This document shows, one piece after another, positions 815 to 61,326 of a stretch of DNA of 64,000 bases. This stretch comes from Candidatus Poribacteria bacterium (GTDB lineage: Bacteria; Poribacteria; WGA-4E; WGA-3G): NCBI GenBank assembly GCA_965220325.1, contig OZ244821.1:1179428-1243427 (forward strand), given 5' to 3'. Position 1 is the first letter of the stretch. Every line of letters begins with the position of its first letter. The position numbers and the translations under genes are program-made. The notes under the pieces are model-generated. The model ran no database searches. It was not told the origin of the DNA and saw only the letters and a list, made by a program, of their open reading frames with translations.

Positions 815-904
815 GTAGGTATTTGATAACGCAAGTTGCCAGGGCGATTTAGTTTTCGGTTTTGGCTTGGGTTTTCGTTTACATAAGTTGATGTTTTCTT
901 ATGA

Positions 905-986
905 AAGATCGCGAGCACAGCTCGCTCCTACAAGGGAGAAATATTTACATAGATAAAGTAAATATGTAAAACTAAGTACCCCTGCG
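905..986 (+). repeat. REP element copy (GATCGCGAGCACAGCTCGCTCCTAC hairpin followed by TTTACATAGATAAAGTAAATATGTAAA hairpin)
   Basis: The same roughly 80 bp unit recurs at about 14415, 21497, 26310 and 61180. It has a GTAG/CTAC tetranucleotide next to an imperfect palindrome, the classic REP architecture. It is preceded by a CAGGGCGATTTAGTTTTCGGTTTT module that is also seen at 6821 and 61113. Confidence 0.6.
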
Positions 987-1004
987 CAAGTTGCCACCTT
1001 TTAT

Positions 1005-1080
1005 TGACATAGCACTCCTACGGAGTGTAAGACGTTGGATATACTGTTTTCTATAGATATATCACCCCTACGGGGTGAGG
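1005..1080. repeat. paired-hairpin repeat (CACTCC-TAC-GGAGTG ... CACCCC-TAC-GGGGTG), core-only copy
   Basis: Homologous to the cores at about 21650-21740 and 23775-23860 (GCCCC-GCT/TAC-GGGGC pairs separated by ...CGTTTCTATAGACATA...). The stem sequence differs here but pairing is preserved. Confidence 0.5.
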
Positions 1081-1490
1081 AAAATACTTGAAACCCTCAT
1101 TGAAGGACGCAGAAATACCCGAGCAAAACACGAAAATCTGTTAGTAGCAACTTGGGTTATTTGATAGCAGGACTTACGCACTTTTGACGATATGATGCTC
1201 CGTTAGCGGGTAAACTCTCAAAAAACAGAGGCGTTCTCAGTGCACAGGAGACCAACGGTTTCCTATGGTACAAAAGACCCACAGGCTAACAGCCTATGGT
1301 ACAAAAGAGCAACTTGGGTTATTTGATAGTATAAAACCTGTCAATACCAATTACGCAGTTTTTCTGAAAGAAACGGGAAGTTACTTTTGGACTATCTTTT
1401 ATCGGGGTAGACGTTTCTAATAGATAAGGGAAAATGGCCCGCTTATTTTTTATGGAACGGTTCGTCAGATAGACAAGGGAGGGATATACA

Positions 1491-2966: not shown

Positions 2967-4595
2967 ATGTTAAAAAATATCCGGATCCTATTAAAAGCCG
3001 ATTATCAAGGATGGGTGAATAACCTTAAACACAGCGGAGAGACGTGGCGGAAAGGTGCTTTAAAGGGTGTCGCTTATCTCGTTCTCATCATCGCTCTGGC
3101 GGTGTTAGGCAACTCCCTTTTCAGCCATTTGCGTCTCACCGAAGCAGAACCGACGCTTCTATTAGGCGTAATCAATGGGTTCATAGCATTTGGCGTTATT
3201 GTCGTCGCAAAGGAGTTGATGGAAGGTTCCCTGAAGATTCTATATGAGGCACCAGACACCGCACGCTTACACGCTACACCGATGCGTTCGGTGGCGATTT
3301 TCGGATATAAGTTCCTCCACCTCACCATCACACGCTTTCTGAGCATTCTCTGTTTCCTCGGACCCCCGTGGGTGATGTTCGGGGTAATCTTTGAACTGCC
3401 GTGGTATTTTTATATAGGACTATTTCCAACGTGCCTGGGTCTGCTCATCGTCATCGCGAGTTATGTCACCATCAGTATGATGCTCATTGCCCGCTTCTTC
3501 TCATCTGGCGGACTCATTACCACACTCAAGGTGCTCGGTACAGCCGTCAGCGTGATGGTCGGTTTTCTTTTGCCGTTGACACTGTTTACCTCGTTTGATG
3601 CAATACCGGTGAAACAGATTTTGCTCGATTGGGCAGCCCCAGAAACGACAGACGCAGGCACTAAATGGTATCCACACGAATGGATTGGGCAACTCTTATT
3701 AATCTGGACGACTGAATCCACAATACAAGACCGATGGCGATGGGTACTCGGAGGTATCGGCGGAAGTGTTGCCTCTATGGCGGTGGCAATTCTCGTTGCA
3801 CAACTGATCTATCAGCGCGGTTGGGAAAATATCCGTCTGTTGAAAACGAAGCGTAAATCTATACGCCACAACGGTGATTCTAAAGCATCGTCGCTAAAAG
3901 GTATTACCGTGGCACTCGGACGGGGACCAATAAAAGCCATGATGCTAAAAGATTTTCTAATCTATGTCAGGCACAGTGGGCGACTCATTGCGATACTAAT
4001 GCTTACGCTTTTTCTTGCACTTCACATCGGTGTCCTATTTATACACGGCGGTGGGATGAACGCTGCCGAAAGTCTTACGGTACAAATTGTACTTTACAGC
4101 CTTCTGATTACCTTCGGTATTAGTTGTAACGGTTTTCGGGATGAAGGAAAAACGTGGTGGATGCTGAAATCTGCACCTGTCACACCAAGATTGGTATTTA
4201 TCGGAAAATTCCTGACTGCCCTCCTCTGTGCGTTGGTTTATGCTGAATTCTGGTCGTTGGTCGCCGTTTATCTACTTCCGATTCCGAGGCACAATTGGAT
4301 GCCGTTGCTGCTGATGCCTATAATAACGCTGCCAGCGGGATGCGCATTAAATACTGCGATCGGAACGTTGCCGTGGATGGCGGAATTAACACAACAACCC
4401 AAACCCGTTTTACGGGTTATAACCTTCACAGGAATACTCATTGTTGATGTGGGACTTATCATTGTGCCGGTGATAGCTTGGTACACAGAAAGTTTCGTTC
4501 TCTTTACAGGGTTAATGCTCGTCCTCGTCGTTGTGTTTATAGTGTGCTATAGATGGGGCATAAATAACCTTCGCAAGTTGTTAGTCGCACAATGA
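2967..4595 (+). CDS. polytopic membrane protein, probable ABC-2-type permease partner
   Basis: 542 aa with many hydrophobic helices. Lies immediately downstream of the ABC ATPase in the same orientation. Confidence 0.5.
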   Translation: MLKNIRILLKADYQGWVNNLKHSGETWRKGALKGVAYLVLIIALAVLGNSLFSHLRLTEAEPTLLLGVINGFIAFGVIVVAKELMEGSLKILYEAPDTARLHATPMRSVAIFGYKFLHLTITRFLSILCFLGPPWVMFGVIFELPWYFYIGLFPTCLGLLIVIASYVTISMMLIARFFSSGGLITTLKVLGTAVSVMVGFLLPLTLFTSFDAIPVKQILLDWAAPETTDAGTKWYPHEWIGQLLLIWTTESTIQDRWRWVLGGIGGSVASMAVAILVAQLIYQRGWENIRLLKTKRKSIRHNGDSKASSLKGITVALGRGPIKAMMLKDFLIYVRHSGRLIAILMLTLFLALHIGVLFIHGGGMNAAESLTVQIVLYSLLITFGISCNGFRDEGKTWWMLKSAPVTPRLVFIGKFLTALLCALVYAEFWSLVAVYLLPIPRHNWMPLLLMPIITLPAGCALNTAIGTLPWMAELTQQPKPVLRVITFTGILIVDVGLIIVPVIAWYTESFVLFTGLMLVLVVVFIVCYRWGINNLRKLLVAQ

Positions 4596-14101: not shown

Positions 14102-14407
14102 CTACACATCAGAACCGTTTTGTGGTACGCCGGGGGGCGGTTCTGTAAATTCCTCACTCCGCGCCGCCGCTTCTTTTCTTCGGCGATCCCATTCCACGAT
14201 TTCTTGATAAACTGCGGCCTTGCCTTCAGCAATGCCCTCGGCCTTGCCTTCAGCAATGCCCTCGGCTTTGGCAGCCTGAATCCGTTTTTCTCGCCTGTCA
14301 AGATACCAATCTGACAATAACATAATTACGTCAATGCCTCCTACTATCATTCCAGGATCATTCAATTCTCGATTTGGATATTGGTTTTGCTTTACGTAAG
14401 TGAACAC
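14102..14407 (-). CDS. hypothetical small protein with (AEGIAEGK) tandem repeats
   Basis: GTG start. C-terminal W..RRKEAA...E.F.EP.P tail is shared with 20812-21351. The N-terminal 16 codons are also found as a remnant at 21440-21497 next to a REP copy. Confidence 0.35.
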   Translation of the reverse strand: MFTYVKQNQYPNRELNDPGMIVGGIDVIMLLSDWYLDRREKRIQAAKAEGIAEGKAEGIAEGKAAVYQEIVEWDRRRKEAAARSEEFTEPPPGVPQNGSDV

Positions 14408-14414
14408 CCTTAGG

Positions 14415-14496
14415 AAAGATCGCGAGCGCAGCTCGCTCCTACAGGGGAGGAGTATTTACATAAACAAAGTGAATATGTAAAATTGAATGGTCCTGC
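14415..14496 (+). repeat. REP element copy
   Basis: AAAGATCGCGAGCGCAGCTCGCTCCTACAGGGGAGG...TTTACATAAACAAAGTGAATATGTAAA. Same family as 905-986. Confidence 0.6.
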
Positions 14497-14647: not shown

Positions 14648-14775
14648 AGTGCTCGCGATAAATATAACGACTCTTTTGTAGGAGCGAGCTGCGCTCGCGA
14701 TCTTCCTCATGCCATCGCGATCTTCCTCATGCCATCGCGATCTTCCTCATGCCATCGCGATCTTCCTCATTCCAT
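14648..14775 (-). repeat. inverted REP copy (TGTAGGAGCGAGCTGCGCTCGCGATC) plus a x4 tandem 20-mer (CATCGCGATCTTCCTCATGC) flanking the RAYT 3' end
   Basis: Reverse complement of the REP core, oriented opposite to the REP array on the other side of the RAYT gene. Confidence 0.55.
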
Positions 14776-15240
14776 CTCATATTTACATCGCCAAAATGGA
14801 TAATCCCGCGCAGCCTTTACCAATCCTGCTCTCACCGGGTTATGATAACAATATTCGATAATAGCGTTCAACGATTCATCCCGTCGAATACCGTGATCAT
14901 GGTAAGCAGGTTGCCAAATCGAACCGCTACGATCCAAACACGCATTAATCTGTTTCGCTGTGTGGCTTTTGAAGGACTGTATGAGTCTTGATAATGTTTG
15001 TTTACTGCCGAGTTGGATAACGGTGTGGATATGATCTGGCATCACACAGATACAAAACCATCTGAGTCGATCATTGGTTTCGAGCCAATCAAATGACTGA
15101 AAAATGATGTCAGCGATTTTGGGAGTTGCAAGCAGCGGTTTTTTCTTAAGTGTCGTAAGCGTGAGATAATAGTAGGTACCGGGTATGGAGTATCTGCCTT
15201 TACGGAGTTGTCGGTGTCCGCGGGTGGGTGTTCGTTGCAT
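14767..15240 (-). CDS. REP-associated tyrosine transposase (RAYT, IS200/IS605-like HuH transposase)
   Basis: 157 aa. HuH motif VMPDHIHTVIQL, SIWQPAYHDHGIR, and catalytic-Tyr region EYCYHNPVRAGLVKAARDYPFW, collinear with E. coli TnpA_REP. Flanked by inverted REPs. Confidence 0.9.
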   Translation of the reverse strand: MQRTPTRGHRQLRKGRYSIPGTYYYLTLTTLKKKPLLATPKIADIIFQSFDWLETNDRLRWFCICVMPDHIHTVIQLGSKQTLSRLIQSFKSHTAKQINACLDRSGSIWQPAYHDHGIRRDESLNAIIEYCYHNPVRAGLVKAARDYPFWRCKYEME

Positions 15241-15274
15241 TTCATATTCCTATAAGTTAGAGATTGTTTTTAGT

Positions 15275-15608
15275 GCCAAGATCGCGAGCACAGGGTCAAG
15301 ATCGCGAGCATAGTGCCAAGATCGCGAGCGACAAGAAACACCGTTTTTGCTTGGGCGTTTCTTGTAAGCAAAAACACTCGCTCCTACACAAGAGACGTTA
15401 GAATAATCGCGAGCACAGCTCGCTCCTACACAAGAGACGTTAGAATAATCGCGAGCACAGCTCGCTCCTACACAAGAGACGTTAGAATAATCGCGAGCAC
15501 AGCTCGCTCCTACACAAGAGACGTTAGAATAATCGCGAGCACAGCTCGCTCCTACACAAGAGACGTTAGAATAATCGCGAGCACAGCTCGCTCCTACACA
15601 AGAGGTGT
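15275..15608 (+). repeat. REP tandem array (about 7 units; five near-identical 42-bp units AATCGCGAGCACAGCTCGCTCCTACACAAGAGACGTTAGAAT)
   Basis: Direct tandem repeats with no spacers, so not CRISPR. The first units carry a 45-bp insertion in the hairpin loop identical to that in copy 21497. Confidence 0.65.
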
Positions 15609-15743
15609 TGAAGCATGTAAAAATGGTATAAGGCGCGAGTTGTTGGTCGAAACCGAAAGATTTTTTCGGAGAAAAAATCGTACCAACAACCAACAACCAA
15701 CAACCAACAACCAACAACCAATAACCCTTAAAAAAGCAAATAG

Positions 15744-21407: not shown

Positions 21408-21496
21408 GGATTTTTTTATCAAGATTTTGATGCAGGGCCATTCAATTCTCGATTTGGATATTGGTTTTGCTTTACAGAGGTGAACATTCTTACGGA

Positions 21497-21621
21497 AAAT
21501 CGCGAGCGTGAAGAAACACCGTTTTTGCTTGGGCGTTTCTTAAGCAAAAACACTCGCTCCTACCGGGGAATCATATTCACAGATATAAAGTGAATAGGTA
21601 CAATTGAATGGCCCTGATAGT
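21497..21621 (+). repeat. REP copy with 45-bp hairpin-loop insertion
   Basis: CGCGAGCG[TGAAGAAACACCGTTTTTGCTTGGGCGTTTCTTAAGCAAAAACAC]TCGCTCCTAC...TTCACAGATATAAAGTGAATAGGTACA. The insert is itself a hairpin (GTTTTTGCTT/AAGCAAAAAC). Confidence 0.6.
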
Positions 21622-21866
21622 ATATTACTAAACTTTGGACAATTTTAGGTGCGATACACATGTCGCCCCGCTGGGGCTTAGACCTTGGGAGACCTGACGT
21701 TTCTATAAACATACCGCCCCGCTGGGGCTGCTCTTTAGTTCATTCGTGTTTATTTTCTTGTGAGTTGGGTTTGCATGAAAAACTTTTAGAAAAATCGGAA
21801 ATACTTCGGAAATAGGTCATGAACTCAACAGAAATTGTCCAAACTATAGTAGTATATTATCAAAAA
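21618..21866 (+). mobile_element. MITE-like element (about 250 bp) with terminal inverted repeats ACTAAACTTTGGACAATTTT / AAATTGTCCAAACTATAG and a paired-hairpin core
   Basis: Homologous over its whole length to 23735-23972 in the same orientation. The core is GCCCC-GCT-GGGGC x2. Confidence 0.55.
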
Positions 21867-21885
21867 TGTCCGAAAATGACAATGC

Positions 21886-21912
21886 AAAATTCTATATTGT
21901 CAAAATTGCGTA
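21886..21912 (+). promoter_or_regulatory. palindrome TGACAAT-N13-ATTGTCA plus direct repeats AATTCTATATTRTCAAAA upstream of fic, a possible operator
   Basis: Located 40-60 nt upstream of the Fic start in an AT-rich leader. Confidence 0.3.
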
Positions 21913-21948
21913 AAAATGATAATATAGAATTCTATATTATCAAAAACA

Positions 21949-23091
21949 GTGAAAAATAATAATATGAAAAAGTTTATAGCAGGCGAATACAGACAACAGA
22001 GAGAATATAAGAGTTTTACACCGTCCCTCGTAAACCGCTATTTTGTTTGGGAAGACCCACAGATAAATATTCTAATGGCAAGGGCAATGCAGCTCTTAGG
22101 AGAGTTAAATGCTTATGCCGAACTCATACCAGATGTAGATTTCTTCATTCAAATGACAATTACGAAAGAAGCTCGAGATTCAAATCTGCTTGAAGGGACG
22201 AGAACCGAACTTGATGAAGTTGTTCTTCCGCACACGGAAATTCCGCCGACCAGACGCGGTGATAGACAAGAGGTTCAAAATTATATTGAAGCGATGAATT
22301 TCGCAATAGCCGAACTTCCAAAAATTCCGATTTCGATGCGACTTCTCAAGGATGTACATAAAATACTACTTTCCGGTGTTCGCGGAAAACACAAGGCACC
22401 CGGTGAAATTCGCAGAAGTCAAAACTGGATTGGCGGTTCCTCGGTTTCTGATGCTTTTTTCGTTCCACCTTCTCCAGAAGAAGTCCCAGATCTTTTAAGT
22501 GATTTGGAGAAATTTTGGCACAACCGATCCCTGCAAATTCCGGAACTGATTAAAATCGCTATCACACATTATCAGTTTGAGACCATTCACCCCTTCCTTG
22601 ATGGAAACGGTAGGTGCGGGAGACTGTTAATCGTCTTGCAACTCATTGATGCAAAGATACTTGAGAAGCCGGGGCTTTATGTATCTACTTTTTTTCAGAG
22701 ACATAAAGATGCGTACTATGATTCACTTACTACGGTCCGTAAATTGAATAAATTAGATCAATGGATATTGTTTTTCTTAGAAGGAATCGCTGATGCTGCC
22801 AAGGATACAAGAGAAACGTTCAAGTCGATTACTGCGCTTCGTCAAGAATATGATACAGCGATTTTTACCTTGGGTTCTCGGGCAAAGAACGCTCAAAAAT
22901 TACTACTTTTTATGTACTCCCAACCGATTGTTAACGTAAATTGGGTTGCAACGGAATTAAACATAAACTATCCAACCGCGAACCGTCTCCTAAAATGTTT
23001 GACAGAACTTGACATACTAAAGGAAATTACGGGATACTCGCGTAATCGCTTTTTTGTCTTGGAGAAATACCTGAACCTCTTCAGAAGTTAG
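21949..23091 (+). CDS. fic: Fic family protein (class II, intramolecular inhibitory helix), probable AMP-transferase
   Basis: Canonical HPFLDGNGRCGRLL (HPFx[DE]GNGR) motif. The inhibitory motif SNLLEG ([ST]xxxE[GN]) lies N-terminal to the core. C-terminal wHTH-like region. Confidence 0.85.
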   Translation: MKNNNMKKFIAGEYRQQREYKSFTPSLVNRYFVWEDPQINILMARAMQLLGELNAYAELIPDVDFFIQMTITKEARDSNLLEGTRTELDEVVLPHTEIPPTRRGDRQEVQNYIEAMNFAIAELPKIPISMRLLKDVHKILLSGVRGKHKAPGEIRRSQNWIGGSSVSDAFFVPPSPEEVPDLLSDLEKFWHNRSLQIPELIKIAITHYQFETIHPFLDGNGRCGRLLIVLQLIDAKILEKPGLYVSTFFQRHKDAYYDSLTTVRKLNKLDQWILFFLEGIADAAKDTRETFKSITALRQEYDTAIFTLGSRAKNAQKLLLFMYSQPIVNVNWVATELNINYPTANRLLKCLTELDILKEITGYSRNRFFVLEKYLNLFRS

Positions 23092-23508: not shown

Positions 23509-23734
23509 CTACTTCAGTCGATGGCTATTGTCTTTTCTAAACCTCTATACTATCTTTGATAAAGCGAATATGTAAAACTATAACGGATTTCAAAATTAAT
23601 GAGACCCTTTACAAGCGGACGAGGGAACCTCGCCCCTACAAGGGGTGGTCTCGGCAATCACTGAAATGTCTCTTTAATTATTGACTTTACTATAAATGCC
23701 CCTGATGGCCATGCTTTTTTTCGCTTGACTTTAC

Positions 23735-23972
23735 ATTATACTATAGTTTGGACAATTTTTGCGCAATAAACATGCCGCCCCTACGGGGCTTAGATTCGTG
23801 GCGGATGCCGTTTCTATAGACATATCGCCCCTACGGGGCTGCGTATCGGTGCATCGGCATTTATTTTTCTACGAGTTGCGTTTGTATCTGTAACACTCAG
23901 AAAATCCGAGAATGTGGTGGAAACAATGCCTGATCTGGATAGAAACTGTCCAAACTTTAGTACATTATATAT
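23735..23972 (+). mobile_element. second copy of the MITE-like element (TIRs TATAGTTTGGACAATTTTT / AAACTGTCCAAACTTTAG)
   Basis: Direct-orientation homolog of 21618-21866. Hairpins GCCCC-TAC-GGGGC x2. Confidence 0.55.
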
Positions 23973-24093: not shown

Positions 24094-25191
24094 ATGAAAA
24101 TTCGAGATATTAAAGTCTATCAAGTGGATCTGCCGCTTTATGAAGGCAGCTACAACTGGTCCGGCGGAAAATCTGTTTCCGTTTTCGACAGTACGATTGT
24201 CTCCGTTGAAACAGACGAAGGTATTACCGGCTACGGTGAAGTCTGTCCGTTGGGACCGTTCTATCTGCCTGCTTACGCCACCGGTGCACGTACCGGTATC
24301 GCTGAACTTGCACAGCACCTCATCGGTGAAGACCCGACGCAACTCCTCCCGCTCAACCGACAGATGGACATCGCACTCAAGGGGCATCCGTACGTGAAAT
24401 CTGCAATCGACATGGCGTGCTGGGATATCCTCGGGAAAGCTTCAAACGCATCTATCTGCACGCTTCTCGGTGGGCGGTATGGCGAGGACTTCATGCTCTA
24501 TCGCGCGATCTCACAGGAATCGCCTGACGAGATGGCGGCGAAGGTTGCAACTTACCGGGCGGAGGGGTACCGTAAATTCCAGTTGAAAGTCGGCGGGGAT
24601 CCAAATACCGATATCGAACGTATCCACGCTGTCGCCGAGTTGATGGAATCGGGAGATGTGCTGATCGCGGATGCAAACACGGGGTGGTTGATGCACCAAG
24701 CTGCTCGCGTCGTCCGAGGTGTGAGCGATGTGGATGTCTATATCGAGCAGCCCTGTCTCTCATACGAAGAGTGCCTCGCCATCCGTCAGCGGACCGACCA
24801 CCCCTTTGTTCTCGATGAGACCATCGACGGCATCCACGCCTTATTACGCGGTCATGCCGACCGGGCGATGGATGTTGTGAATATCAAGATTAGCAAATTC
24901 GGCGGATTGACCAAAGCGAAACTCGCCAGAGACCTCTGCGTTGAACTCGGCGTAGCGATGACGATTGAAGACAGCTGGGGCGGCGATATTACAACCGCCG
25001 CGATTGCGCATCTGGCACACAGCACACCGCCAGAATTCCTTTTCACAGCGACGGATTTCAACAGTTATGTCACTGTCAGCACGGCGGAAGGCGCGCCGCA
25101 ACGGGTTAACGGCAGGATGGCAGCGTCAACGCAACCAGGTTTGGGGATTACACCGAAGATGGGGGTGTTGGGTGAAGAGCGGAAGAGGTGA
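24094..25191 (+). CDS. mandelate racemase/muconate lactonizing enzyme family (enolase superfamily) protein
   Basis: MR/MLE N-terminal capping domain plus barrel with metal-ligand region. 365 aa. Confidence 0.8.
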
Positions 25192-25270
25192 AGAGGGAAG
25201 GATGGAAGGCGGAAAGATGGAAGAGGGGAGGATGGAAGACCGGAGGATGGAAGAGGGGAGGCGGGAAGTT

Positions 25271-26236: not shown

Positions 26237-26309
26237 TTAGGACTTACGCATGCGGCTCTTTCGTACCACAAACTTTATGAAGATTAAATAAATATTTGGG
26301 TAATCGTTA

Positions 26310-26388
26310 AAGATCGCGAGCGCAGCTCGCTCCTACAGGGAAGAAGTATTTACATAGATAAAGTGAATATGTAAACTAAATACCCCTA
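26310..26388 (+). repeat. REP element copy
   Basis: AAAGATCGCGAGCGCAGCTCGCTCCTACAGGGAAGAAGTATTTACATAGATAAAGTGAATATGTAAA, immediately 3' of the LamG-protein gene. Confidence 0.6.
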
Positions 26389-29144: not shown

Positions 29145-30511
29145 GGCAGTACAAACTTTCCGAGGATTTTCCGAACAGATGCCCCTGTCGCTGAAGGCAG
29201 GTTCCCCGCATTTCCGTGGAGCGTCTCATTCGCCAGAATCGCGAACGCGATCGCCTCCTTCGCATCCGCTGAGATACCAGAGGTGTTCACAGGTTCAACT
29301 GTCGTGTTTTCCAATACTTCGCTCAACCGTTGCATGAGGGTCTGATTGTGGACACCGCCGCCACTCACATAAAGCACGTCTATCGGATTTTGTCCCGCTA
29401 TAAATTGTGCGATGTAGCCGGTAATCGTTTGGACCGTCAACTCGGTCAGTGTCGCGATGCAGTCGTTATCTGAAAGTGTGCGCTTCCGGCAAGCTGTGAG
29501 ACATTCCATCGCATAATTGCGTCCAAACATCTCACGTCCAGTCGTTTTTGGCGGTGGCAGATGGAAAAACGGGTGCTTCAACCATTCGTCAATGATCGGT
29601 TGGTGCGGCGTACCCTGCGCGGCACGCTGCCCCGCTGCGTCATACCGTTCTGTCCCTTCCGTGATCTCTGTTATGACAGCGTCAATACACATATTGCCGG
29701 GCCCCGTATCCGCGGCACAGACAGTATCGAATGCGCCATTTGCCGGAAGCACCGTGAGATTCGCAATCCCGCCGATATTCAAGAGTCCGACTGTTTCAGT
29801 GCTGTTGTGGAACAGCAGATAATCTGGGTATGATACCAACGGTGCACCTTGTCCGCCTGCTGCCATATCCGCGACGCGGAAATCCGCTATCGTTGGAATC
29901 CCTGTTTCGTGTGCAATGACTGCAGGCTCCCCAATCTGCAATGTCGATGACAGGGTGGAAGGGTGGAAGGGTGGAAGGGTGGAAGGGATTGGAAGGGATT
30001 GGAAGGATGGAAGGGCGGAAGGATGGGGGGGATTGGAAGGGTGGATGGGTGGAAGGGTGGAAGGGATTGGAAGGGATTGGAAGGATGGAAGGGCGGAAGG
30101 ATGGAGGGGATTGGAAGGATGGAAGGGTGGAAGGGTGGAAGGGATGTTTGGGTCTTTCGGGAGGTGATGGATCGTTTGGCCGTGTGAACCGATGAGGTCA
30201 ATATCGCTGGTAGACATTTCGCTTTTTTGTAGGATGTGTTTAACTGCCTCAGCGAAGAGGTATCCGATATAGAAATTCATTTCACAGATGTCGTCAACAC
30301 GACCCGTATCGGGTTGACAGAGCGCAAGGATACGTTGTGGCACGCCAGATGGAAACGGAACAGTCTCAAAAGCGATCAGGTCTACTTTAGTTTCCAAACC
30401 GTGTCCGACAATTTCGACAATAGCAGCATCAATGCCGTCAACTGAGGTACCGGACATTAACCCGATAACCAATTTTTTATCTTTCTTGAGAAGTTCAAAA
30501 AAATGTTTCAT
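29141..30511 (-). CDS. anmK: anhydro-N-acetylmuramic acid kinase with an in-frame roughly 65 aa Pro-rich repeat insertion
   Basis: GLMSGTSVDGIDAAIVEI..., GSHGQTIHH..., TLQIGEPAVIAHETGIPTIADFRVADMAAGGQGAPLV are collinear with E. coli AnmK. The insert TLPPFHPSNPLHPSALPSFQSLPIPS... is encoded by CCTTCC repeats. Confidence 0.85.
   Translation of the reverse strand: MKHFFELLKKDKKLVIGLMSGTSVDGIDAAIVEIVGHGLETKVDLIAFETVPFPSGVPQRILALCQPDTGRVDDICEMNFYIGYLFAEAVKHILQKSEMSTSDIDLIGSHGQTIHHLPKDPNIPSTLPPFHPSNPLHPSALPSFQSLPIPSTLPPIHPSNPPHPSALPSFQSLPIPSTLPPFHPSTLSSTLQIGEPAVIAHETGIPTIADFRVADMAAGGQGAPLVSYPDYLLFHNSTETVGLLNIGGIANLTVLPANGAFDTVCAADTGPGNMCIDAVITEITEGTERYDAAGQRAAQGTPHQPIIDEWLKHPFFHLPPPKTTGREMFGRNYAMECLTACRKRTLSDNDCIATLTELTVQTITGYIAQFIAGQNPIDVLYVSGGGVHNQTLMQRLSEVLENTTVEPVNTSGISADAKEAIAFAILANETLHGNAGNLPSATGASVRKILGKFVLP
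29938..30172. repeat. (GGAAGG[GA]TGG)n microsatellite block lying inside the anmK reading frame
   Basis: GGGTGGAAGGGTGGAAGGGTGGAAGGGATTGGAAGG... on the plus strand. Same repeat family as 6337-6400, 25192-25268, 33215-33300 and 38805-38850. Confidence 0.6.
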
Positions 30512-37372: not shown

Positions 37373-38803
37373 ATGGAAACTTTTTTGATTGTAGACGACG
37401 AAAAAAATATACTTAAGATGTTATCCCTAGGGCTCGAAATGCGGGGGTATCAAACCTTGACAGCTGCGAGCGGTGAGGAAGCTTTGCAGCAAGCGATGAA
37501 ATCTGATGTTGACCTCGTTCTGTTGGATATCCGTATGGAGGATGGTATGGACGGCGTCCAGACGCTCGTCAAACTCCGTGAACGTTATCCTGAATTGAAC
37601 GTCGTGATGATGTCCGCGCAGCAAGATATTGAAATCGCTGTTAAAACGATGGAACTCGGCGCGAAACGGTACATCACGAAGCCGATCGATATTGATAAGA
37701 TTTTGTCGAGTGTCCAACCGTTTTTGGAGATATCGCGCTTATCGCAAGAGAATGAGATCCTGAAGTCTCAAATTGTCCGTATTGATGAGATGGTCGGAGA
37801 AAGTACGGCTATCAAGCACCTCCGTTCACAGATTAATCGGGTCGCTGGTAGTAGGCTCGGTGTCCTTATCTCTGGCGAGAACGGTACCGGCAAGCAGCTT
37901 GTCGCCAATGCTATCCATGAAAAAAGCGAACGTGCAGCGAAAACCTTTATTCCGCTCAATTGTGCTGCTTTGCCAGATGAACTCATTGAGAGCGAACTCT
38001 TCGGACATGAGCGCGGCGCATTCACAGGGGCGGATTCCCGTAGGCAGGGACGTTTTGAACTCGCGGACGGTGGCACCCTTTTTCTTGATGAGATCGGCGA
38101 TATGAGTTTAAAGGCACAAGCGAAGGTCCTTCGCGTGATTGAAACCGGTGAAGTCGAACGTCTCGGCGGCAATCAGATTCGCACTGTAGATGTACGGATT
38201 ATCGCTGCGACGAACAAAAATCTGCCGGAAGAGATTGAGAACGGACGGTTCCGACGGGACCTCTTCTATCGGTTGAATGTTGTCCCTATTGCGGTGCCGC
38301 CGCTTCGCGAACGCACGGAGGATGTTCCATCATTAGTCAAGTACTTCGCCGAGCGCCTGCAGCTCAATATGGCATCTACGCCGAAGGCTATTGATCCGGG
38401 TGCTTACGCCGTGTTTCAAAGTTACCATTGGCCCGGGAACATCCGAGAGTTAAAGAACATCGTTGAACGCCTCCTTATTATGGTGAACCGAGATGTTGTG
38501 ATGGCACCCGATGTTGCAGAGGCTTTGTCTCTGGTGCCGCAAGTGCCTTCTTCACCGAATTTTGACGGTGATACGACGGAGTATCACGGTTCGCAGGCTC
38601 TACCGAACTCGGTACTTTACAAACCCGGAACCCCGTTGAGTCAGATGATGGATACCGCCGAGGCGCAGTGTATTCTCACGGCTTTGGAAGAATTTAACTG
38701 GAATATCCGACGGACAGCGGAAGCATTAGAGGTTGAACGGAGCAACTTGTACAAAAAAATGAACAAGTACGGTATCTCCCGACCAAATTCCGAGGAAGGA
38801 TAG
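37373..38803 (+). CDS. sigma-54-dependent Fis-family response regulator (NtrC-like)
   Basis: Receiver domain (LLDIRMEDGMDG). AAA+ region GENGTGKQLVA, GAFTGA-type ERGAFTGADSRRQGRFELADGGTLFLDEIGDM. C-terminal HTH. Confidence 0.85.
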   Translation: METFLIVDDEKNILKMLSLGLEMRGYQTLTAASGEEALQQAMKSDVDLVLLDIRMEDGMDGVQTLVKLRERYPELNVVMMSAQQDIEIAVKTMELGAKRYITKPIDIDKILSSVQPFLEISRLSQENEILKSQIVRIDEMVGESTAIKHLRSQINRVAGSRLGVLISGENGTGKQLVANAIHEKSERAAKTFIPLNCAALPDELIESELFGHERGAFTGADSRRQGRFELADGGTLFLDEIGDMSLKAQAKVLRVIETGEVERLGGNQIRTVDVRIIAATNKNLPEEIENGRFRRDLFYRLNVVPIAVPPLRERTEDVPSLVKYFAERLQLNMASTPKAIDPGAYAVFQSYHWPGNIRELKNIVERLLIMVNRDVVMAPDVAEALSLVPQVPSSPNFDGDTTEYHGSQALPNSVLYKPGTPLSQMMDTAEAQCILTALEEFNWNIRRTAEALEVERSNLYKKMNKYGISRPNSEEG

Positions 38804-38862
38804 AGATTGGAAGATTGGAAGATTGGAAGGGTGGAAGAGGGGAAGAAAGGTAGATCGGAACG

Positions 38863-61022: not shown

Positions 61023-61179
61023 GCCTAAGAAACGTCTAGTAAATTCAGAACGTCATATCAGACTTCACAACAAAAAATTTCTACCAAAATAGGTATACGT
61101 CTCTATCTTTTCTCAGGACAATTTAGTTTTCGGTTTCGATCTTGGTTTTGGTTGACAGATGTTAACGTTTAGATGCCAG

Positions 61180-61326
61180 GTCGCGAGCGTGAAGAAATCC
61201 GCAGAAATACCCAGGCAATACGCAGAAATACCCAAGCAAATACACCCCAAGCAAATACACTCGCTCCTACCGGGGAAGCGTATTCACATAGATAAAGTGA
61301 ATATGTAAAACTAAACACCCCTGCTA
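61180..61326 (+). repeat. REP copy with a 70-bp loop insertion made of CAGAAATACCCARGCAAATAC repeats
   Basis: GTCGCGAGCG[insert]CACTCGCTCCTACCGGGGAAGCGTATTCACATAGATAAAGTGAATATGTAAAACTAAACACCCCTG. Confidence 0.6.

What the first reader, a model, noticed from the sequence alone, without database searches (positions are those of the whole stretch)
21650..21740. Paired-hairpin element core shows compensatory stem changes across copies
- **Three copies.** They lie at 1005-1080, 21650-21740 and 23775-23860. All share the layout hairpin, about 35 nt containing CGTTTCTATAGACATA, hairpin.
- **Stem variation.** Stems differ between copies yet pairing is maintained: CACTCC...GGAGTG and CACCCC...GGGGTG in copy 1 against GCCCC...GGGGC in copies 2 and 3. 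The loops switch coordinately in both hairpins, GCT in copy 2 and TAC in copies 1 and 3.
- **Interpretation.** Covariation that preserves structure argues for selection on a folded nucleic acid. That could be a transposase or strand-transfer recognition hairpin, or an RNA, rather than neutral repeat decay.
Basis: seen in the sequence. Interest (0 to 1): 0.5.

Follow-up and report, generated by a model that had tools for sequence, protein, structure and literature searches.

The report
REP-like hairpin doublets inside MITEs
The paired hairpins are real: they are copies of a short repeated DNA unit (a conserved 10-base box plus a GC-rich hairpin) that in related genomes flanks a small IS200-like tyrosine (Y1/HUH) transposase gene, so they are most likely that enzyme's recognition hairpins, here carried inside miniature transposons of a sponge-symbiont (Poribacteria-like) genome.

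Summary
**Observation: confirmed.** All three copies exist as described. Each is a direct doublet of one unit: a box (T)TCTATA(G/A)ACATA(T/C)C, then a 5-6 bp GC stem with a 3-nt loop. The two units lie about 50 nt apart.

**Pairing holds in other copies.**
- In 76 non-identical doublets from other genomes, the hairpin that was not used for retrieval covaries: A-T 46, G-C 29, broken 1; and C-G 42, T-A 33, broken 1.
- In 80 metagenome loci fetched only by protein similarity, 102 of 131 boxes are followed by a perfect hairpin. There are 19 different stems. The reversed control gave none.

**What the copies are.**
- The unit flanks an IS200-like Y1 transposase gene (motifs DH[I/M/T]H, WQ, Y---Q--HH; TnpA-Y1 subclass 1.2 by motif) in inverted, REPtron-like orientation.
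- This holds in at least 42 of 80 metagenome loci and in seven of the eight distinct close-homologue (Poribacteria-type) places examined.
- In the window, each doublet sits inside a miniature transposon with terminal inverted repeats and target-site duplications.
- Orientation relative to neighbouring genes is random, no Rfam family reaches threshold, and G-T wobble is not favoured. An RNA role is therefore not supported.

**Novelty.** New variant of a known kind. The only classification found lists subclass 1.2 as having no REP. Binding, cleavage and mobilisation by the enzyme are inferred, not shown.

The parts
820..828 (.). Left target-site duplication TATTTGATA of the family A element (copy 1)
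   Evidence: Identical 9-mer at 1158-1166, read.
829..1157 (+). Family A miniature transposon carrying copy 1. Its left inverted repeat ACGCAAGTTGC(CAC) is split by a nested insertion. Native length is about 174 bp.
   Evidence: Inverted-repeat hits at 827-840 (+) and 1146-1159 (-). 22 full-length relatives, mostly about 153 bp, have 7-9 bp duplications.
840..984 (+). Nested, unrelated miniature transposon ('MITE-1', inverted repeat CAGGGC.ATT.A.TT) inserted into the left end of the family A element. It duplicated CGCAAGTTGC (830-839 and 985-994).
1000..1027 (+). Copy 1, unit 1: box TTTATTGACATAG plus hairpin CACTCC-TAC-GGAGTG (1013-1027)
   Evidence: Local hairpin predicted by DNA folding.
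1047..1077 (+). Copy 1, unit 2: box TTTTCTATAGATATAT plus hairpin CACCCC-TAC-GGGGTG (1063-1077)
1158..1166 (.). Right target-site duplication TATTTGATA (copy 1)
21618..21627 (.). Left target-site duplication TAGTATATTA of the family B element (copy 2)
   Evidence: Identical 10-mer at 21850-21859.
21628..21849 (+). Family B miniature transposon (222 bp) carrying copy 2. Inverted repeats CTAAACTTTGGACAATTT at 21628-21645 and 21832-21849.
21654..21677 (+). Copy 2, unit 1: box ATACACATGTC plus hairpin GCCCC-GCT-GGGGC (21665-21677)
21700..21729 (+). Copy 2, unit 2: box TTTCTATAAACATACC, hairpin GCCCC-GCT-GGGGC (21716-21728), then the conserved 3' T
   Evidence: It matches the consensus derived independently.
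21850..21859 (.). Right target-site duplication TAGTATATTA (copy 2)
23732..23740 (.). Left target-site duplication TACATTATA (copy 3)
   Evidence: Identical 9-mer at 23961-23969.
23741..23960 (+). Family B miniature transposon (220 bp) carrying copy 3. Inverted repeats at 23741-23758 and 23943-23960.
   Evidence: 90-95% identical to elements in other Poribacteria MAGs.
23765..23789 (+). Copy 3, unit 1: box AATAAACATGCC plus hairpin GCCCC-TAC-GGGGC (23777-23789)
23811..23840 (+). Copy 3, unit 2: box TTTCTATAGACATATC, hairpin GCCCC-TAC-GGGGC (23827-23839), then the 3' T
23961..23969 (.). Right target-site duplication TACATTATA (copy 3)

Best explanation
**What it is.**
- Each copy is a direct doublet of a REP-like DNA unit.
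- The unit is a conserved box, a 3-nt offset ending in C, a 5-6 bp GC-rich stem of free sequence, a 3-4 nt loop, the complementary arm, and usually a T. Consensus: tTtCTATAAACATntC-stem-loop-stem'-T.
- The unit is the cognate repeat of a small IS200-like Y1/HUH tyrosine transposase homologue carrying HuH = DH[I/M/T]H, WQ and Y---Q--HH. Those motifs match TnpA-Y1 subclass 1.2.

**Shown here.**
- The unit is dispersed in intergenic DNA of Poribacteria. It also occurs in MAGs or isolates labelled Bacteroidota, Blastocatellia (Acidobacteriota), Clostridia and Candidatus Onstottus.
- It flanks the Y1 gene on both sides in inverted orientation, with the box nearest the gene.
- Stem sequence varies freely but stays paired, while the box is conserved.
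- Same-strand neighbouring units are phased at 49-52 nt.
- In the window, the doublets are the internal cargo of two families of miniature transposons with terminal inverted repeats and 7-10 bp target duplications.

**Inferred, by analogy with IS608 TnpA and E. coli TnpA-REP.**
- The Y1 protein binds the hairpin by shape on single-stranded DNA.
- It reads the box as a guide or cleavage sequence.
- That requirement is what keeps the stems paired.
- The two stem subfamilies in the window (C-A...T-G in copy 1, G...C in copies 2 and 3) probably match different Y1 paralogues.

**More speculative.** A dimer bound to two phased hairpins could excise or insert about 50 nt cassettes. That would account for solo units, doublets and tandem arrays.

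**Likely route of the window copies.** They probably reached their present sites as whole miniature transposons moved by an unidentified DDE-type transposase, not by the Y1 enzyme.
For: **(1) Pairing, on a hairpin not used for retrieval (alignment A2, 76 distinct doublets).**
- Pair 34-47: A-U 46, G-C 29, other 1.
- Pair 36-45: C-G 42, U-A 33, other 1.
- 91% of cells are paired, against 38-54% when partners are slid.
- All four stem combinations occur (CACCCC, CACTCC, GCCCC, GCTCC), and also GCCTC/GAGGC.

**(2) Independent sample: 80 metagenome loci fetched only by Y1 protein similarity.**
- The box CTATARANAK occurs 131 times, against 17 in reversed-sequence controls.
- 102 of the 131 are followed by a perfect 5-bp hairpin, against 0 in controls.
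- There are 19 distinct inner stems.
- Positions my filter did not require are conserved: C(-13) 97/110, C(-1) 89/110, T(+1) 86/110.

**(3) Gene association.**
- Among 117 loci retrieved only for containing a unit, three carry a Y1 gene within about 300 nt of units: L076, L109 and L070. My estimate of the chance expectation is about 0.2.
- Pfam Y1_Tnp gives E = 1e-24 to 7e-27. NCBIfam transpos_IS200 gives 67-74 bits against a cut-off of 55.
- 42 of 80 metagenome loci have a unit within 150 nt of the gene.
- Orientation near the gene: upstream 24 on the minus strand and 5 on the plus; downstream 25 on the plus and 7 on the minus.
- L076, and six of the seven distinct close-homologue (66-93% identity) places fetched afterwards, show minus-strand units upstream and units or doublets on the plus strand just downstream. 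L205 is the exception.
- Those flanking stems and loops (CACTCC/CACCCC with TAC or GCT) are the same as in window copy 1.
- Two more distant paralogues carry G-type stems: P0101 (L203) and P0046 (L206, L207).

**(4) Specificity.** The window's own class-2 RAYT (14767-15240) is flanked by a different, GTAG-type REP, not by this unit.

**(5) Phasing.** Same-strand neighbour spacing peaks at 49-52 nt in both samples.

**(6) Miniature-transposon shell.** Inverted repeats plus perfect 7-10 bp direct duplications surround all three window copies and most of the 24 full-length family A elements listed.

**(7) Constraint within family A.** Boxes, stems and inverted repeats are conserved. Loops and linker vary.
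Against: - No Y1 gene of this type lies in the 64-kb window, and the source genome is not among the fetched loci. The link to the window copies is by homology of the repeat, not by adjacency.
- No biochemical data exist. Binding, the cleavage site and mobilisation are inferred.
- The target duplications and inverted repeats around the window copies point to a DDE-type mechanism, which Y1 enzymes do not produce. The hairpins may therefore be passive cargo in these particular copies.
- 31 of 80 metagenome Y1 loci showed no unit under my strict filter, and one close homologue (L205) has no clear flanking units.
- Quentin et al. 2018 list subclass 1.2 as having no REP. Either they missed this unit or my motif-based assignment is imperfect.
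- Counts are per sequence, not per evolutionary event.
- Part of the enrichment near the gene could reflect those flanks being intergenic. The orientation bias does not have this problem.
Confidence: 0.72

Rival explanations
1. The doublet is a structured RNA: a small RNA or cis-regulatory element resembling the Rfam motif Acido-Lenti-1. Its hairpins are conserved for RNA function.
For: - Structure-preserving stem variation is what an RNA would also show.
- Single units match the second half of Acido-Lenti-1 (RF01687, model positions 24-45 of 46) at 13-15 bits, both in the window and in a Blastocatellia locus.
- All three window copies lie upstream of, and in the same direction as, a gene.
Against: - Across 124 element clusters, orientation relative to the downstream gene is random: family A 16 same and 17 opposite; others 30 and 37.
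- No Rfam family reaches its gathering score in the window or in 18 loci. The Acido-Lenti-1 matches are far below the 37-bit cut-off and absent at E <= 0.5 in 20 further loci.
- Among single broken pairs, G-T and T-G are not favoured over A-C and C-A.
- The units occur on both strands as inverted clusters, in tandem arrays and inside TSD-bounded transposons.
Confidence: 0.07
2. The hairpins are passive internal sequence of DDE-type miniature transposons. They look conserved only because the copies are young and all descend from one master. Their position next to Y1 genes reflects where such elements like to insert.
For: - All three window copies, and most family A and B copies, have terminal inverted repeats and perfect target duplications.
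- Some copies are 90-96% identical between genomes.
- A complete family A element lies upstream of the Y1 gene in L076.
Against: - The same box-plus-hairpin occurs without these inverted repeats in other phyla, with 19 different stems and a conserved box.
- Two transposon families with unrelated ends carry the same doublet.
- Orientation relative to Y1 genes is fixed at 49 to 12, but random relative to other genes.
- Within family A (mean pairwise identity 78%), loops and linker vary while boxes and stems do not.
Confidence: 0.12
3. The units are host-serving elements, as proposed for enterobacterial REPs: mRNA 3'-end stabilisers, terminators, or binding sites for gyrase or nucleoid proteins. 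On this reading they are maintained by host selection rather than by a transposase. This is not exclusive of the main explanation.
For: - Almost exclusively intergenic: only 8 of 124 clusters fall inside crude ORFs.
- GC-rich stable hairpins.
- Canonical REPs are known to acquire such roles (general knowledge; summarised in the abstracts listed).
Against: - No T-tract follows the hairpin (one search shows only one conserved T).
- There is no preference for gene 3' ends or for a strand.
- The 10-nt conserved box has no role in such functions, but fits sequence-specific recognition.
Confidence: 0.06
4. The direct repeats with variable linkers are miniature CRISPR-like arrays.
For: Repeats of about 28-32 nt are separated by about 20-nt variable linkers. 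Arrays of up to about 10 units exist in some Poribacteria loci.
Against: - Linkers are too short and recur: two linker types alternate in L084 and L091.
- Linkers are partly conserved between dispersed copies.
- No cas genes lie next to the window copies.
- The arrays sit inside transposons with target duplications.
Confidence: 0.01

Closest known systems
REP / BIME / REPIN sequences with their RAYT (TnpA-REP) genes, arranged as REPtrons (E. coli, Pseudomonas, Stenotrophomonas; Quentin et al. 2018, PMC6006769; Bertels et al. 2017, PMC5581495)
   Same: - A short GC-rich hairpin with a conserved 5' sequence.
- Many dispersed intergenic copies.
- The repeats flank a low-copy Y1/HUH gene in inverted orientation.
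- Each paralogue appears to have its own repeat subfamily.
- Stem sequence is free but pairing is kept.
   Different: - No GT[AG]G foot. Instead there is a 10-nt box, CTATAAACAT, set 3 nt from the stem.
- The stem is only 5-6 bp.
- The basic multimer is a direct doublet phased at about 50 nt, not an inverted REPIN pair.
- The associated enzyme is class 1 (Y---Q--HH, scoring as IS200 in NCBIfam), not class 2 (Y---NP).
- In Poribacteria the doublets are packaged inside TIR/TSD miniature transposons.
Subterminal hairpins of IS200/IS605 insertion sequences and their non-autonomous derivatives (PATEs)
   Same: - The enzyme is closest by sequence (NCBIfam transpos_IS200 above cut-off).
- Two similar hairpins lie on the same strand in direct orientation within a doublet, like a left and a right end.
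   Different: - The Y1 gene's own flanks are inverted, not direct.
- No tnpB gene is present.
- Quentin et al. report subclass 1.2 genes as low-copy and divergent within genomes (their Table 1, read).
- The window copies are bounded by target duplications, which IS200/IS605 transposition does not make.
TnpA-Y1 subclass 1.2 (Quentin et al. 2018)
   Same: The protein motifs DH[IV]H, WQ and Y---Q--HH, a length of about 150-160 aa, and presence in Bacteroidetes all match.
   Different: - That paper lists the subclass as not associated with REP and lacking IS200-type hairpins.
- Here its relatives are flanked by a specific hairpin unit.
- The host range extends to Poribacteria, Acidobacteriota and others.
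Acido-Lenti-1 RNA motif (Rfam RF01687; Weinberg et al. 2010, PMC2864571)
   Same: The second half of the model (..UAUgcC plus a 5-bp GC stem with a 3-nt loop) aligns to single units. One host locus is from Acidobacteriota.
   Different: - Scores are 13-15 bits against a gathering score of 37.
- Only half the model matches.
- The two hairpins in that 46-nt model must lie much closer together than 50 nt.
Modular miniature transposons such as pneumococcal BOX elements (recalled from memory, not tested here)
   Same: Inverted ends enclose a variable number of repeated internal modules of about 45-50 nt that can fold.
   Different: - No sequence relationship was tested.
- BOX modules are not known to be linked to a Y1 transposase.

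Membership tests
Canonical REP (as defined in Quentin et al. 2018) | 5' GT[AG]G tetranucleotide at, or 1-2 nt from, the foot of the hairpin | tested here: not met
   The units have ..ACAT-N-N-C before the stem and no GTAG or GTGG. A true GTAG-type REP does exist elsewhere in the window, at 14677-14702 and 15335-15651.
Canonical REP | Hairpin-forming palindrome present in many dispersed intergenic copies | tested here: met
116 of 124 clusters lie outside crude ORFs.
REPtron (RAYT gene flanked by its repeats in inverted orientation) | A Y1/HUH gene within about 1 kb, flanked on both sides by the repeat in opposite orientations | tested here: met
   Met in related loci, not in the window. Orientation counts are 24 to 5 upstream and 25 to 7 downstream. 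Individual loci: L076, L198-L204, L206 and L207.
RAYT / TnpA-REP protein (class 2) | Y---NP tyrosine motif; NCBIfam REP_Tyr_transpos above its cut-off | tested here: not met
   The associated proteins have Y---Q--HH. They score 31-38 bits against a cut-off of 80.
IS200/IS605 family transposase (protein) | Pfam Y1_Tnp and NCBIfam transpos_IS200 above cut-off | tested here: met
   Y1_Tnp 87-94 bits (cut-off 23). transpos_IS200 67-74 bits (cut-off 55).
IS200/IS605 insertion sequence or PATE (element) | Left and right hairpins in direct orientation around the gene or element, no target duplication, insertion 3' of a fixed tetra- or pentanucleotide | tested here: not met
   The gene flanks are inverted. 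The window elements carry 9-10 bp duplications. A fixed target sequence for the doublet itself was not tested.
TnpA-Y1 subclass 1.2 | HuH DH[IV]H, W motif WQ, Y motif Y---Q--HH, about 148 aa with a conserved C-terminal tail | tested here: met
   PDH(I/M/T)HIL, WQEGFG and YI(E/Q/T)NQE.HH, at 154-166 aa, compared with Table 1 of PMC6006769. The assignment is by motif only. The authors' HMMs were not available.
MITE (miniature inverted-repeat transposable element) | Small, non-coding, terminal inverted repeats, flanking direct target duplication, multiple copies | tested here: met
   - Family A: about 153-194 bp, inverted repeat ACNCAAGTTGCCAC, 7-9 bp duplication, 22 full-length copies aligned.
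- Family B: about 220 bp, inverted repeat CTAWAGTTTGGACAATTT, 9-10 bp duplication.
- No matching transposase gene was found in the loci.
Rfam Acido-Lenti-1 (RF01687) | Covariance-model score at or above the gathering score of 37 bits | tested here: not met
   13.4-15.0 bits, half-model only. No hits at gathering thresholds.
Intrinsic terminator | GC hairpin followed by a T-run; located at gene 3' ends in the gene's orientation | tested here: not met
   Only a single conserved T follows the stem. There is no positional or orientation preference.
CRISPR array | Unique spacers of at least about 25 nt between identical repeats; cas genes nearby | tested here: not met
   Linkers of about 20 nt recur within arrays and between loci. 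Neighbouring genes are Fic, an enolase-superfamily gene and PspA.

The most novel reading that the evidence does not exclude
- The 'orphan' TnpA-Y1 subclass 1.2 enzymes are in fact the centre of a previously unrecognised, phylum-spanning REPtron type. It is seen here in Poribacteria, Acidobacteriota, Bacteroidota and MAGs labelled Clostridia and Candidatus Onstottus.
- Its repeat is a box-plus-hairpin unit that multiplies as direct, 50-nt-phased cassettes by single-strand 'peel and paste'.
- In Poribacteria these cassettes have additionally been captured by DDE-type miniature transposons, giving a two-layer mobile element.
- The Rfam 'Acido-Lenti-1 RNA' may be the same DNA element misread as an RNA.
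Probability: 0.4. Interest if true: 0.6.

Novelty: new variant of a known kind. Interest (0 to 1): 0.5.

Why it matters
- **A testable substrate for an unassigned enzyme clade.** REP/RAYT systems are the best example of a domesticated bacterial transposase maintaining a population of short repeats, but they are described mainly for class-2 enzymes in Proteobacteria. The held literature lists this class-1, IS200-like subclass as having neither IS features nor REPs. I found at least 7,799 homologues of it at E <= 1e-30. A cognate hairpin unit would give it a concrete substrate to test in vitro.
- **An intermediate form.** It would link IS200 ends and REPs: an IS200-like protein, a REPtron-like gene arrangement, and direct rather than inverted doublets.
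- **Practical consequences.**
  - The unit is a useful marker when annotating Poribacteria and soil MAGs.
  - It explains a class of assembly-breaking repeats.
  - It warns that hairpin covariation in multi-copy intergenic repeats should not be read as evidence for an RNA.

Tried and rejected
- **Rfam.** Gathering threshold on the whole window and on 18 loci gave nothing but two tRNAs. E-value mode gave only weak half-model matches to Acido-Lenti-1 and chance hits.
- **Cis-regulatory or promoter idea.** All three window copies lie upstream of co-oriented genes (PspA-like, Fic, enolase superfamily). I rejected the idea because orientation is random over 124 clusters.
- **Source contig.** Exact-protein look-up of two window proteins found nothing on record.
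- **Autonomous parent.** I looked for long elements between family A or B inverted repeats. The only candidate (L091, 1363 nt) is a membrane-protein gene, not a transposase.
- **Single-sequence thermodynamics.** Not significant for copies 2 and 3. For copy 2 the minimum-energy fold pairs the 5' arm of hairpin 1 with the 3' arm of hairpin 2.
- **G-T against A-C asymmetry, to pick the folded strand or an RNA.** Numbers were too small and showed no asymmetry.
- **The 50-nt cassette model.** The one-unit family B copy in L017 lacks 37 nt, not one full period, so it does not support precise cassette excision.
- **Other readings.** Retron msr/msd, a type III antitoxin array, an integron attC site and a mini-CRISPR were considered from the architecture. 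I dropped them for lack of the required neighbouring genes and because the linkers repeat.
- **Literature.** Nothing links Poribacteria with MITEs, and the single paper holding 'Poribacteria' together with 'repetitive extragenic palindromic' is an unrelated review. 'Poribacteria-1' is absent from the library.
Full report
**1. The observation**

The three copies are present as described.
- Copy 1: CACTCC-TAC-GGAGTG at 1013-1027 and CACCCC-TAC-GGGGTG at 1063-1077.
- Copy 2: GCCCC-GCT-GGGGC at 21665-21677 and 21716-21728.
- Copy 3: GCCCC-TAC-GGGGC at 23777-23789 and 23827-23839.

All are on the + strand. Each copy is therefore a direct repeat of one unit, box plus hairpin, with a period of about 50 nt.

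Evidence that this is more than chance:
- CCCCNNNGGGG occurs 6 times against 0.43 expected, with 0 of 100 shuffles reaching 6.
- A 19-base pattern built on unit 2 should give about 4 chance matches in 596 Gb (my calculation). 96 of them come from MAGs labelled Candidatus Poribacteria.
- Window genes are about 80% identical to Poribacteria genes. The window is therefore from a Poribacteria-like genome that is not among the fetched loci.

Folding single copies as DNA is significant only for copy 1 (z = -3.5, against -0.6 and +0.2 for copies 2 and 3).

**2. Does pairing survive in more copies?**

I aligned 76 distinct doublets (A2) and counted pairs for the stated structure. Hairpin 2 was partly fixed by the search pattern, so hairpin 1 is the fair test.

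| Pair (columns) | Commonest | Compensated | Other |
|---|---|---|---|
| 34-47 | A-U 46 | G-C 29 | 1 |
| 36-45 | C-G 42 | U-A 33 | 1 |
| 37-44 | C-G 72 | U-A 1, U-G 1 | 2 |

- 91% of cells pair, against 38-54% when the 3' partners are slid by 1-3 columns.
- All four combinations occur (CACCCC, CACTCC, GCCCC, GCTCC), and also GCCTC/GAGGC. More than two events are therefore involved.
- These are per-sequence counts, not independent events.
- Loops of the two hairpins are identical in 39 of 76 doublets, against 17.4 expected. Stem class agrees in 70 of 76.

**3. Anatomy around the window copies**

Each doublet lies inside a larger element with terminal inverted repeats and a perfect direct duplication of the target.

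| Copy | Family | Span | Inverted repeat | Target duplication |
|---|---|---|---|---|
| 1 | A | 829-1157 | ACGCAAGTTGCCAC | TATTTGATA, 820-828 and 1158-1166 |
| 2 | B | 21628-21849 | CTAWAGTTTGGACAATTT | TAGTATATTA |
| 3 | B | 23741-23960 | CTAWAGTTTGGACAATTT | TACATTATA |

- Copy 1 is itself interrupted at 840-984 by a third, unrelated miniature transposon that duplicated CGCAAGTTGC.
- Of the 24 full-length family A elements listed in other genomes, most are about 153 bp and carry a perfect 7-9 bp AT-rich duplication.
- These are bona fide MITEs. I found no transposase gene with matching ends in the loci.
- Across 22 family A copies (mean pairwise identity 78%), the inverted repeats, both boxes and the stems are conserved. 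The loops and the linker vary.

**4. The unit exists outside these transposons**

- In Poribacteria it also occurs as solo units and as tandem arrays of up to about 10 units. These have a period of about 50 nt and two alternating linkers (L084, L091, L112).
- It also occurs in a variant with a 24-27 nt insert, itself a hairpin, in the loop.
- It occurs with the same box in Flavobacterium, Saprospiraceae and other Bacteroidota. It is also found in MAGs labelled Clostridia, Blastocatellia and Candidatus Onstottus.
- In Bacteroidota, units form inverted clusters of two forward plus two reverse.
- Over 124 element clusters, orientation relative to the downstream gene is random: family A 16 same and 17 opposite; others 30 and 37. 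Only 8 clusters fall inside crude ORFs.
- That argues against a promoter, leader or terminator. The co-orientation of the three window copies with PspA-like, Fic and enolase-superfamily genes is best read as chance.

**5. The associated gene**

A tblastn scan of the unit-containing loci found a Y1/HUH gene right beside units in three of them: L076 (Poribacteria), L109 (Blastocatellia) and L070 (Bacteroidota). I used an IS200 transposase sequence recalled from memory for that scan. It served only as a lead. All later steps use proteins read from the loci.
- If there is one such gene per 5-7 Mb genome, about 0.2 would be expected by chance in 117 loci of 8 kb (my estimate).
- The proteins match Pfam Y1_Tnp (E = 1e-24 to 7e-27) and NCBIfam transpos_IS200 (67-74 bits, cut-off 55). 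They do not reach REP_Tyr_transpos (31-38 bits, cut-off 80).
- Their motifs are PDH(I/M/T)HIL, WQEGFG and YI.NQE.HH. These are the signature of TnpA-Y1 subclass 1.2 in Quentin et al. 2018. Table 1 of that paper lists the subclass as 'REP: no', low copy, Cyanobacteria and Bacteroidetes.
- In L076 the gene is preceded by a complete family A element in reverse orientation and followed by a forward doublet.
- In L109 it is preceded by three forward and two reverse units.

**6. Independent test of the association**

I fetched 80 metagenome loci purely by similarity to this protein (54-67% identity).
- The box CTATARANAK occurs 131 times, against 17 in reversed-sequence controls.
- 102 of those (78%) are followed by a perfect 5-bp hairpin, against 0 in controls.
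- 42 of 80 loci have a unit within 150 nt of the gene.
- Orientation near the gene: upstream 24 minus and 5 plus; downstream 25 plus and 7 minus. The box is therefore gene-proximal on both sides, an inverted, REPtron-like arrangement.
- The consensus is tTtCTATAAACATntC-stem-loop-stem'-T. Positions I did not select are strongly conserved: C(-13) 97/110, C(-1) 89/110, T(+1) 86/110.
- There are 19 different inner stems. The same stem recurs within a locus in 52% of pairs and between loci in 13%.
- The window units match this consensus at every informative position.
- Same-strand neighbours are spaced 49-52 nt apart in both the metagenome sample and the Poribacteria sample.

A protein search found at least 7,799 homologues at E <= 1e-30. 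I then looked up seven close homologues, which gave seven distinct places.
- Six of the seven show units on the minus strand upstream and a unit or doublet on the plus strand just downstream. One of them lies in OY764073.1, a genome rich in family A elements. L205 is the exception.
- Next to the 77-93% identity proteins, the stems and loops (CACTCC/CACCCC with TAC or GCT) are those of window copy 1.
- Next to more distant paralogues, the stems are G-type, like copies 2 and 3: P0101 (70% identity, L203) and P0046 (72%, L206 and L207).

**7. Specificity control inside the window**

- The window contains a class-2 RAYT at 14767-15240 on the minus strand (NCBIfam REP_Tyr_transpos 136.8 bits).
- It is flanked by a different, canonical REP, GTAGGAGCGAGCTG(C/T)GCTCGCG. 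One copy is on the + strand at 14677-14702. Five complete copies lie on the minus strand within the array of six 42-nt repeats at 15335-15651.
- Each Y1 type therefore has its own repeat.

**8. How it most likely works**

Shown:
- the unit's anatomy and dispersal;
- conservation of the box with free but paired stems;
- the fixed inverted arrangement around subclass-1.2-like Y1 genes;
- the 50-nt phasing;
- the MITE shells in the window.

Inferred, from the established mechanism of IS608 TnpA and E. coli TnpA-REP (hairpin recognised by shape on single-stranded DNA, adjacent bases acting as guide or cleavage sequence):
- the Y1 protein binds the hairpin and reads the box;
- this requirement maintains pairing;
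- stem subfamilies co-evolve with paralogues.

Speculative: a dimer on two phased hairpins excises or inserts one about 50 nt cassette, giving solo units, doublets and arrays. The single one-unit family B copy I examined lacks 37 nt, not one full period. That does not support the idea.

The window copies themselves carry target duplications. They were therefore most likely placed by a DDE-type transposase acting on the MITE ends. Whether the internal hairpins still matter in these copies is open.

**9. Comparison with what is known**

- It works like a REP/RAYT system, but it fails the REP definition on the GT[AG]G foot and the RAYT definition on the Y---NP motif.
- The protein is a member of the IS200 family by profile, but the element is not an IS200/IS605 insertion sequence. 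The flanks are inverted, there is no tnpB, and the gene is low-copy.
- No Rfam family covers it. Single units match half of Acido-Lenti-1 at 13-15 bits against a threshold of 37, which is a lead only.
- I found no paper describing repeats of this kind in Poribacteria, or a repeat for subclass 1.2. This holds within the limits of the held library.

**10. Verdict**

- The 'transposase recognition hairpin' reading is supported by association and comparative evidence.
- The RNA reading is not supported.
- This is a new variant of a known kind, of moderate interest.

Noticed in passing
window 14660-15651: A canonical REPtron. A class-2 RAYT gene lies at 14767-15240 on the minus strand (NCBIfam REP_Tyr_transpos 136.8 bits; HuH MPDHIHTVI; YCYHNPVRAGLV). 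It is flanked by GTAG-type REPs, GTAGGAGCGAGCTG(C/T)GCTCGCG. One copy is on the + strand at 14677-14702. Five complete copies are on the minus strand within the array of six 42-nt repeats at 15335-15651.
   Followed up: partly
window 840-984, 14353-14495, 21433-21616, 61114-61313; partial copies near 23547-23580 and 26284-26375: A separate miniature transposon family ('MITE-1') with inverted repeat CAGG(G/A)(C/T)CATT(C/T)A(A/G)TT and about 9-10 bp target duplication. Its interior carries the GTAG-type REP of the window's RAYT, so a second REP type is also packaged in a TIR element. It also carries repeats of CAGAAATACCCAAGCAAA, which reappear in the tail of family A copy 1 (1110-1135).
   Followed up: partly
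window 1147-1167 and 1309-1329: The right end of the family A element plus its flank (GCAACTTGGGTTATTTGATAG) occurs twice, with 141 nt of unrelated sequence between the two copies (start-to-start 162 nt). This could be a local duplication or an insertion with an unusually long duplication.
   Followed up: no
L012, L057, L094, L001, L062, L073 (Poribacteria loci): Some units carry a 24-27 nt insert, CCCCGATAA(A/G)ATCGGGATTCAAA(GCA)A, which itself contains the palindrome CCCGAT..ATCGGG. It sits exactly between loop positions 1 and 2 of the hairpin, and the stem arms are intact. Either another tiny element targets the loop or this is a structural expansion.
   Followed up: no
L084 about 3935-4440, L091 4520-4970, L112 3498-3600 (contigs CAXXLX010000001.1 and CAXXLX010000002.1 of one assembly): Tandem arrays of up to about 10 units with a period of 49-52 nt. 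Two linker types (..TGTGTTGTGTTGTTGTGTTT and ..TGTCTGGCACT(C/T)G(C/T)GC) alternate.
   Followed up: partly
window 14690-14789: Four tandem 20-nt repeats, TGCCATCGCGATCTTCCTCA, abut and overlap the 3' end of the RAYT gene.
   Followed up: no
window 21877-21942: Two adjacent AT-rich palindromes (TGACAATGCAAAATTCTATATTGTCA and TGATAATATAGAATTCTATATTATCA) lie just upstream of the Fic-domain gene (21949-23091). They look like operators.
   Followed up: no
window 25166-25266, 29948-30197, 38794-38834: Purine-rich GGAAGG-type short tandem repeats recur at three places. The first overlaps the junction of the enolase-superfamily and ornithine cyclodeaminase-like ORFs.
   Followed up: no
L012 1050-1703 (minus strand): A third, longer (217 aa) RAYT-like protein in a Poribacteria genome (REP_Tyr_transpos 53 bits, below the cut-off). 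Yet another repeat lies next to it (about 660-950). Poribacteria therefore seem to carry several Y1 and repeat systems per genome.
   Followed up: no
window 23768-23789; L109 649-670, 786-807, 835-856: Single units align to model positions 24-45 of Rfam Acido-Lenti-1 (13-15 bits against a gathering score of 37). That 'RNA' motif might be a related DNA repeat.
   Followed up: partly
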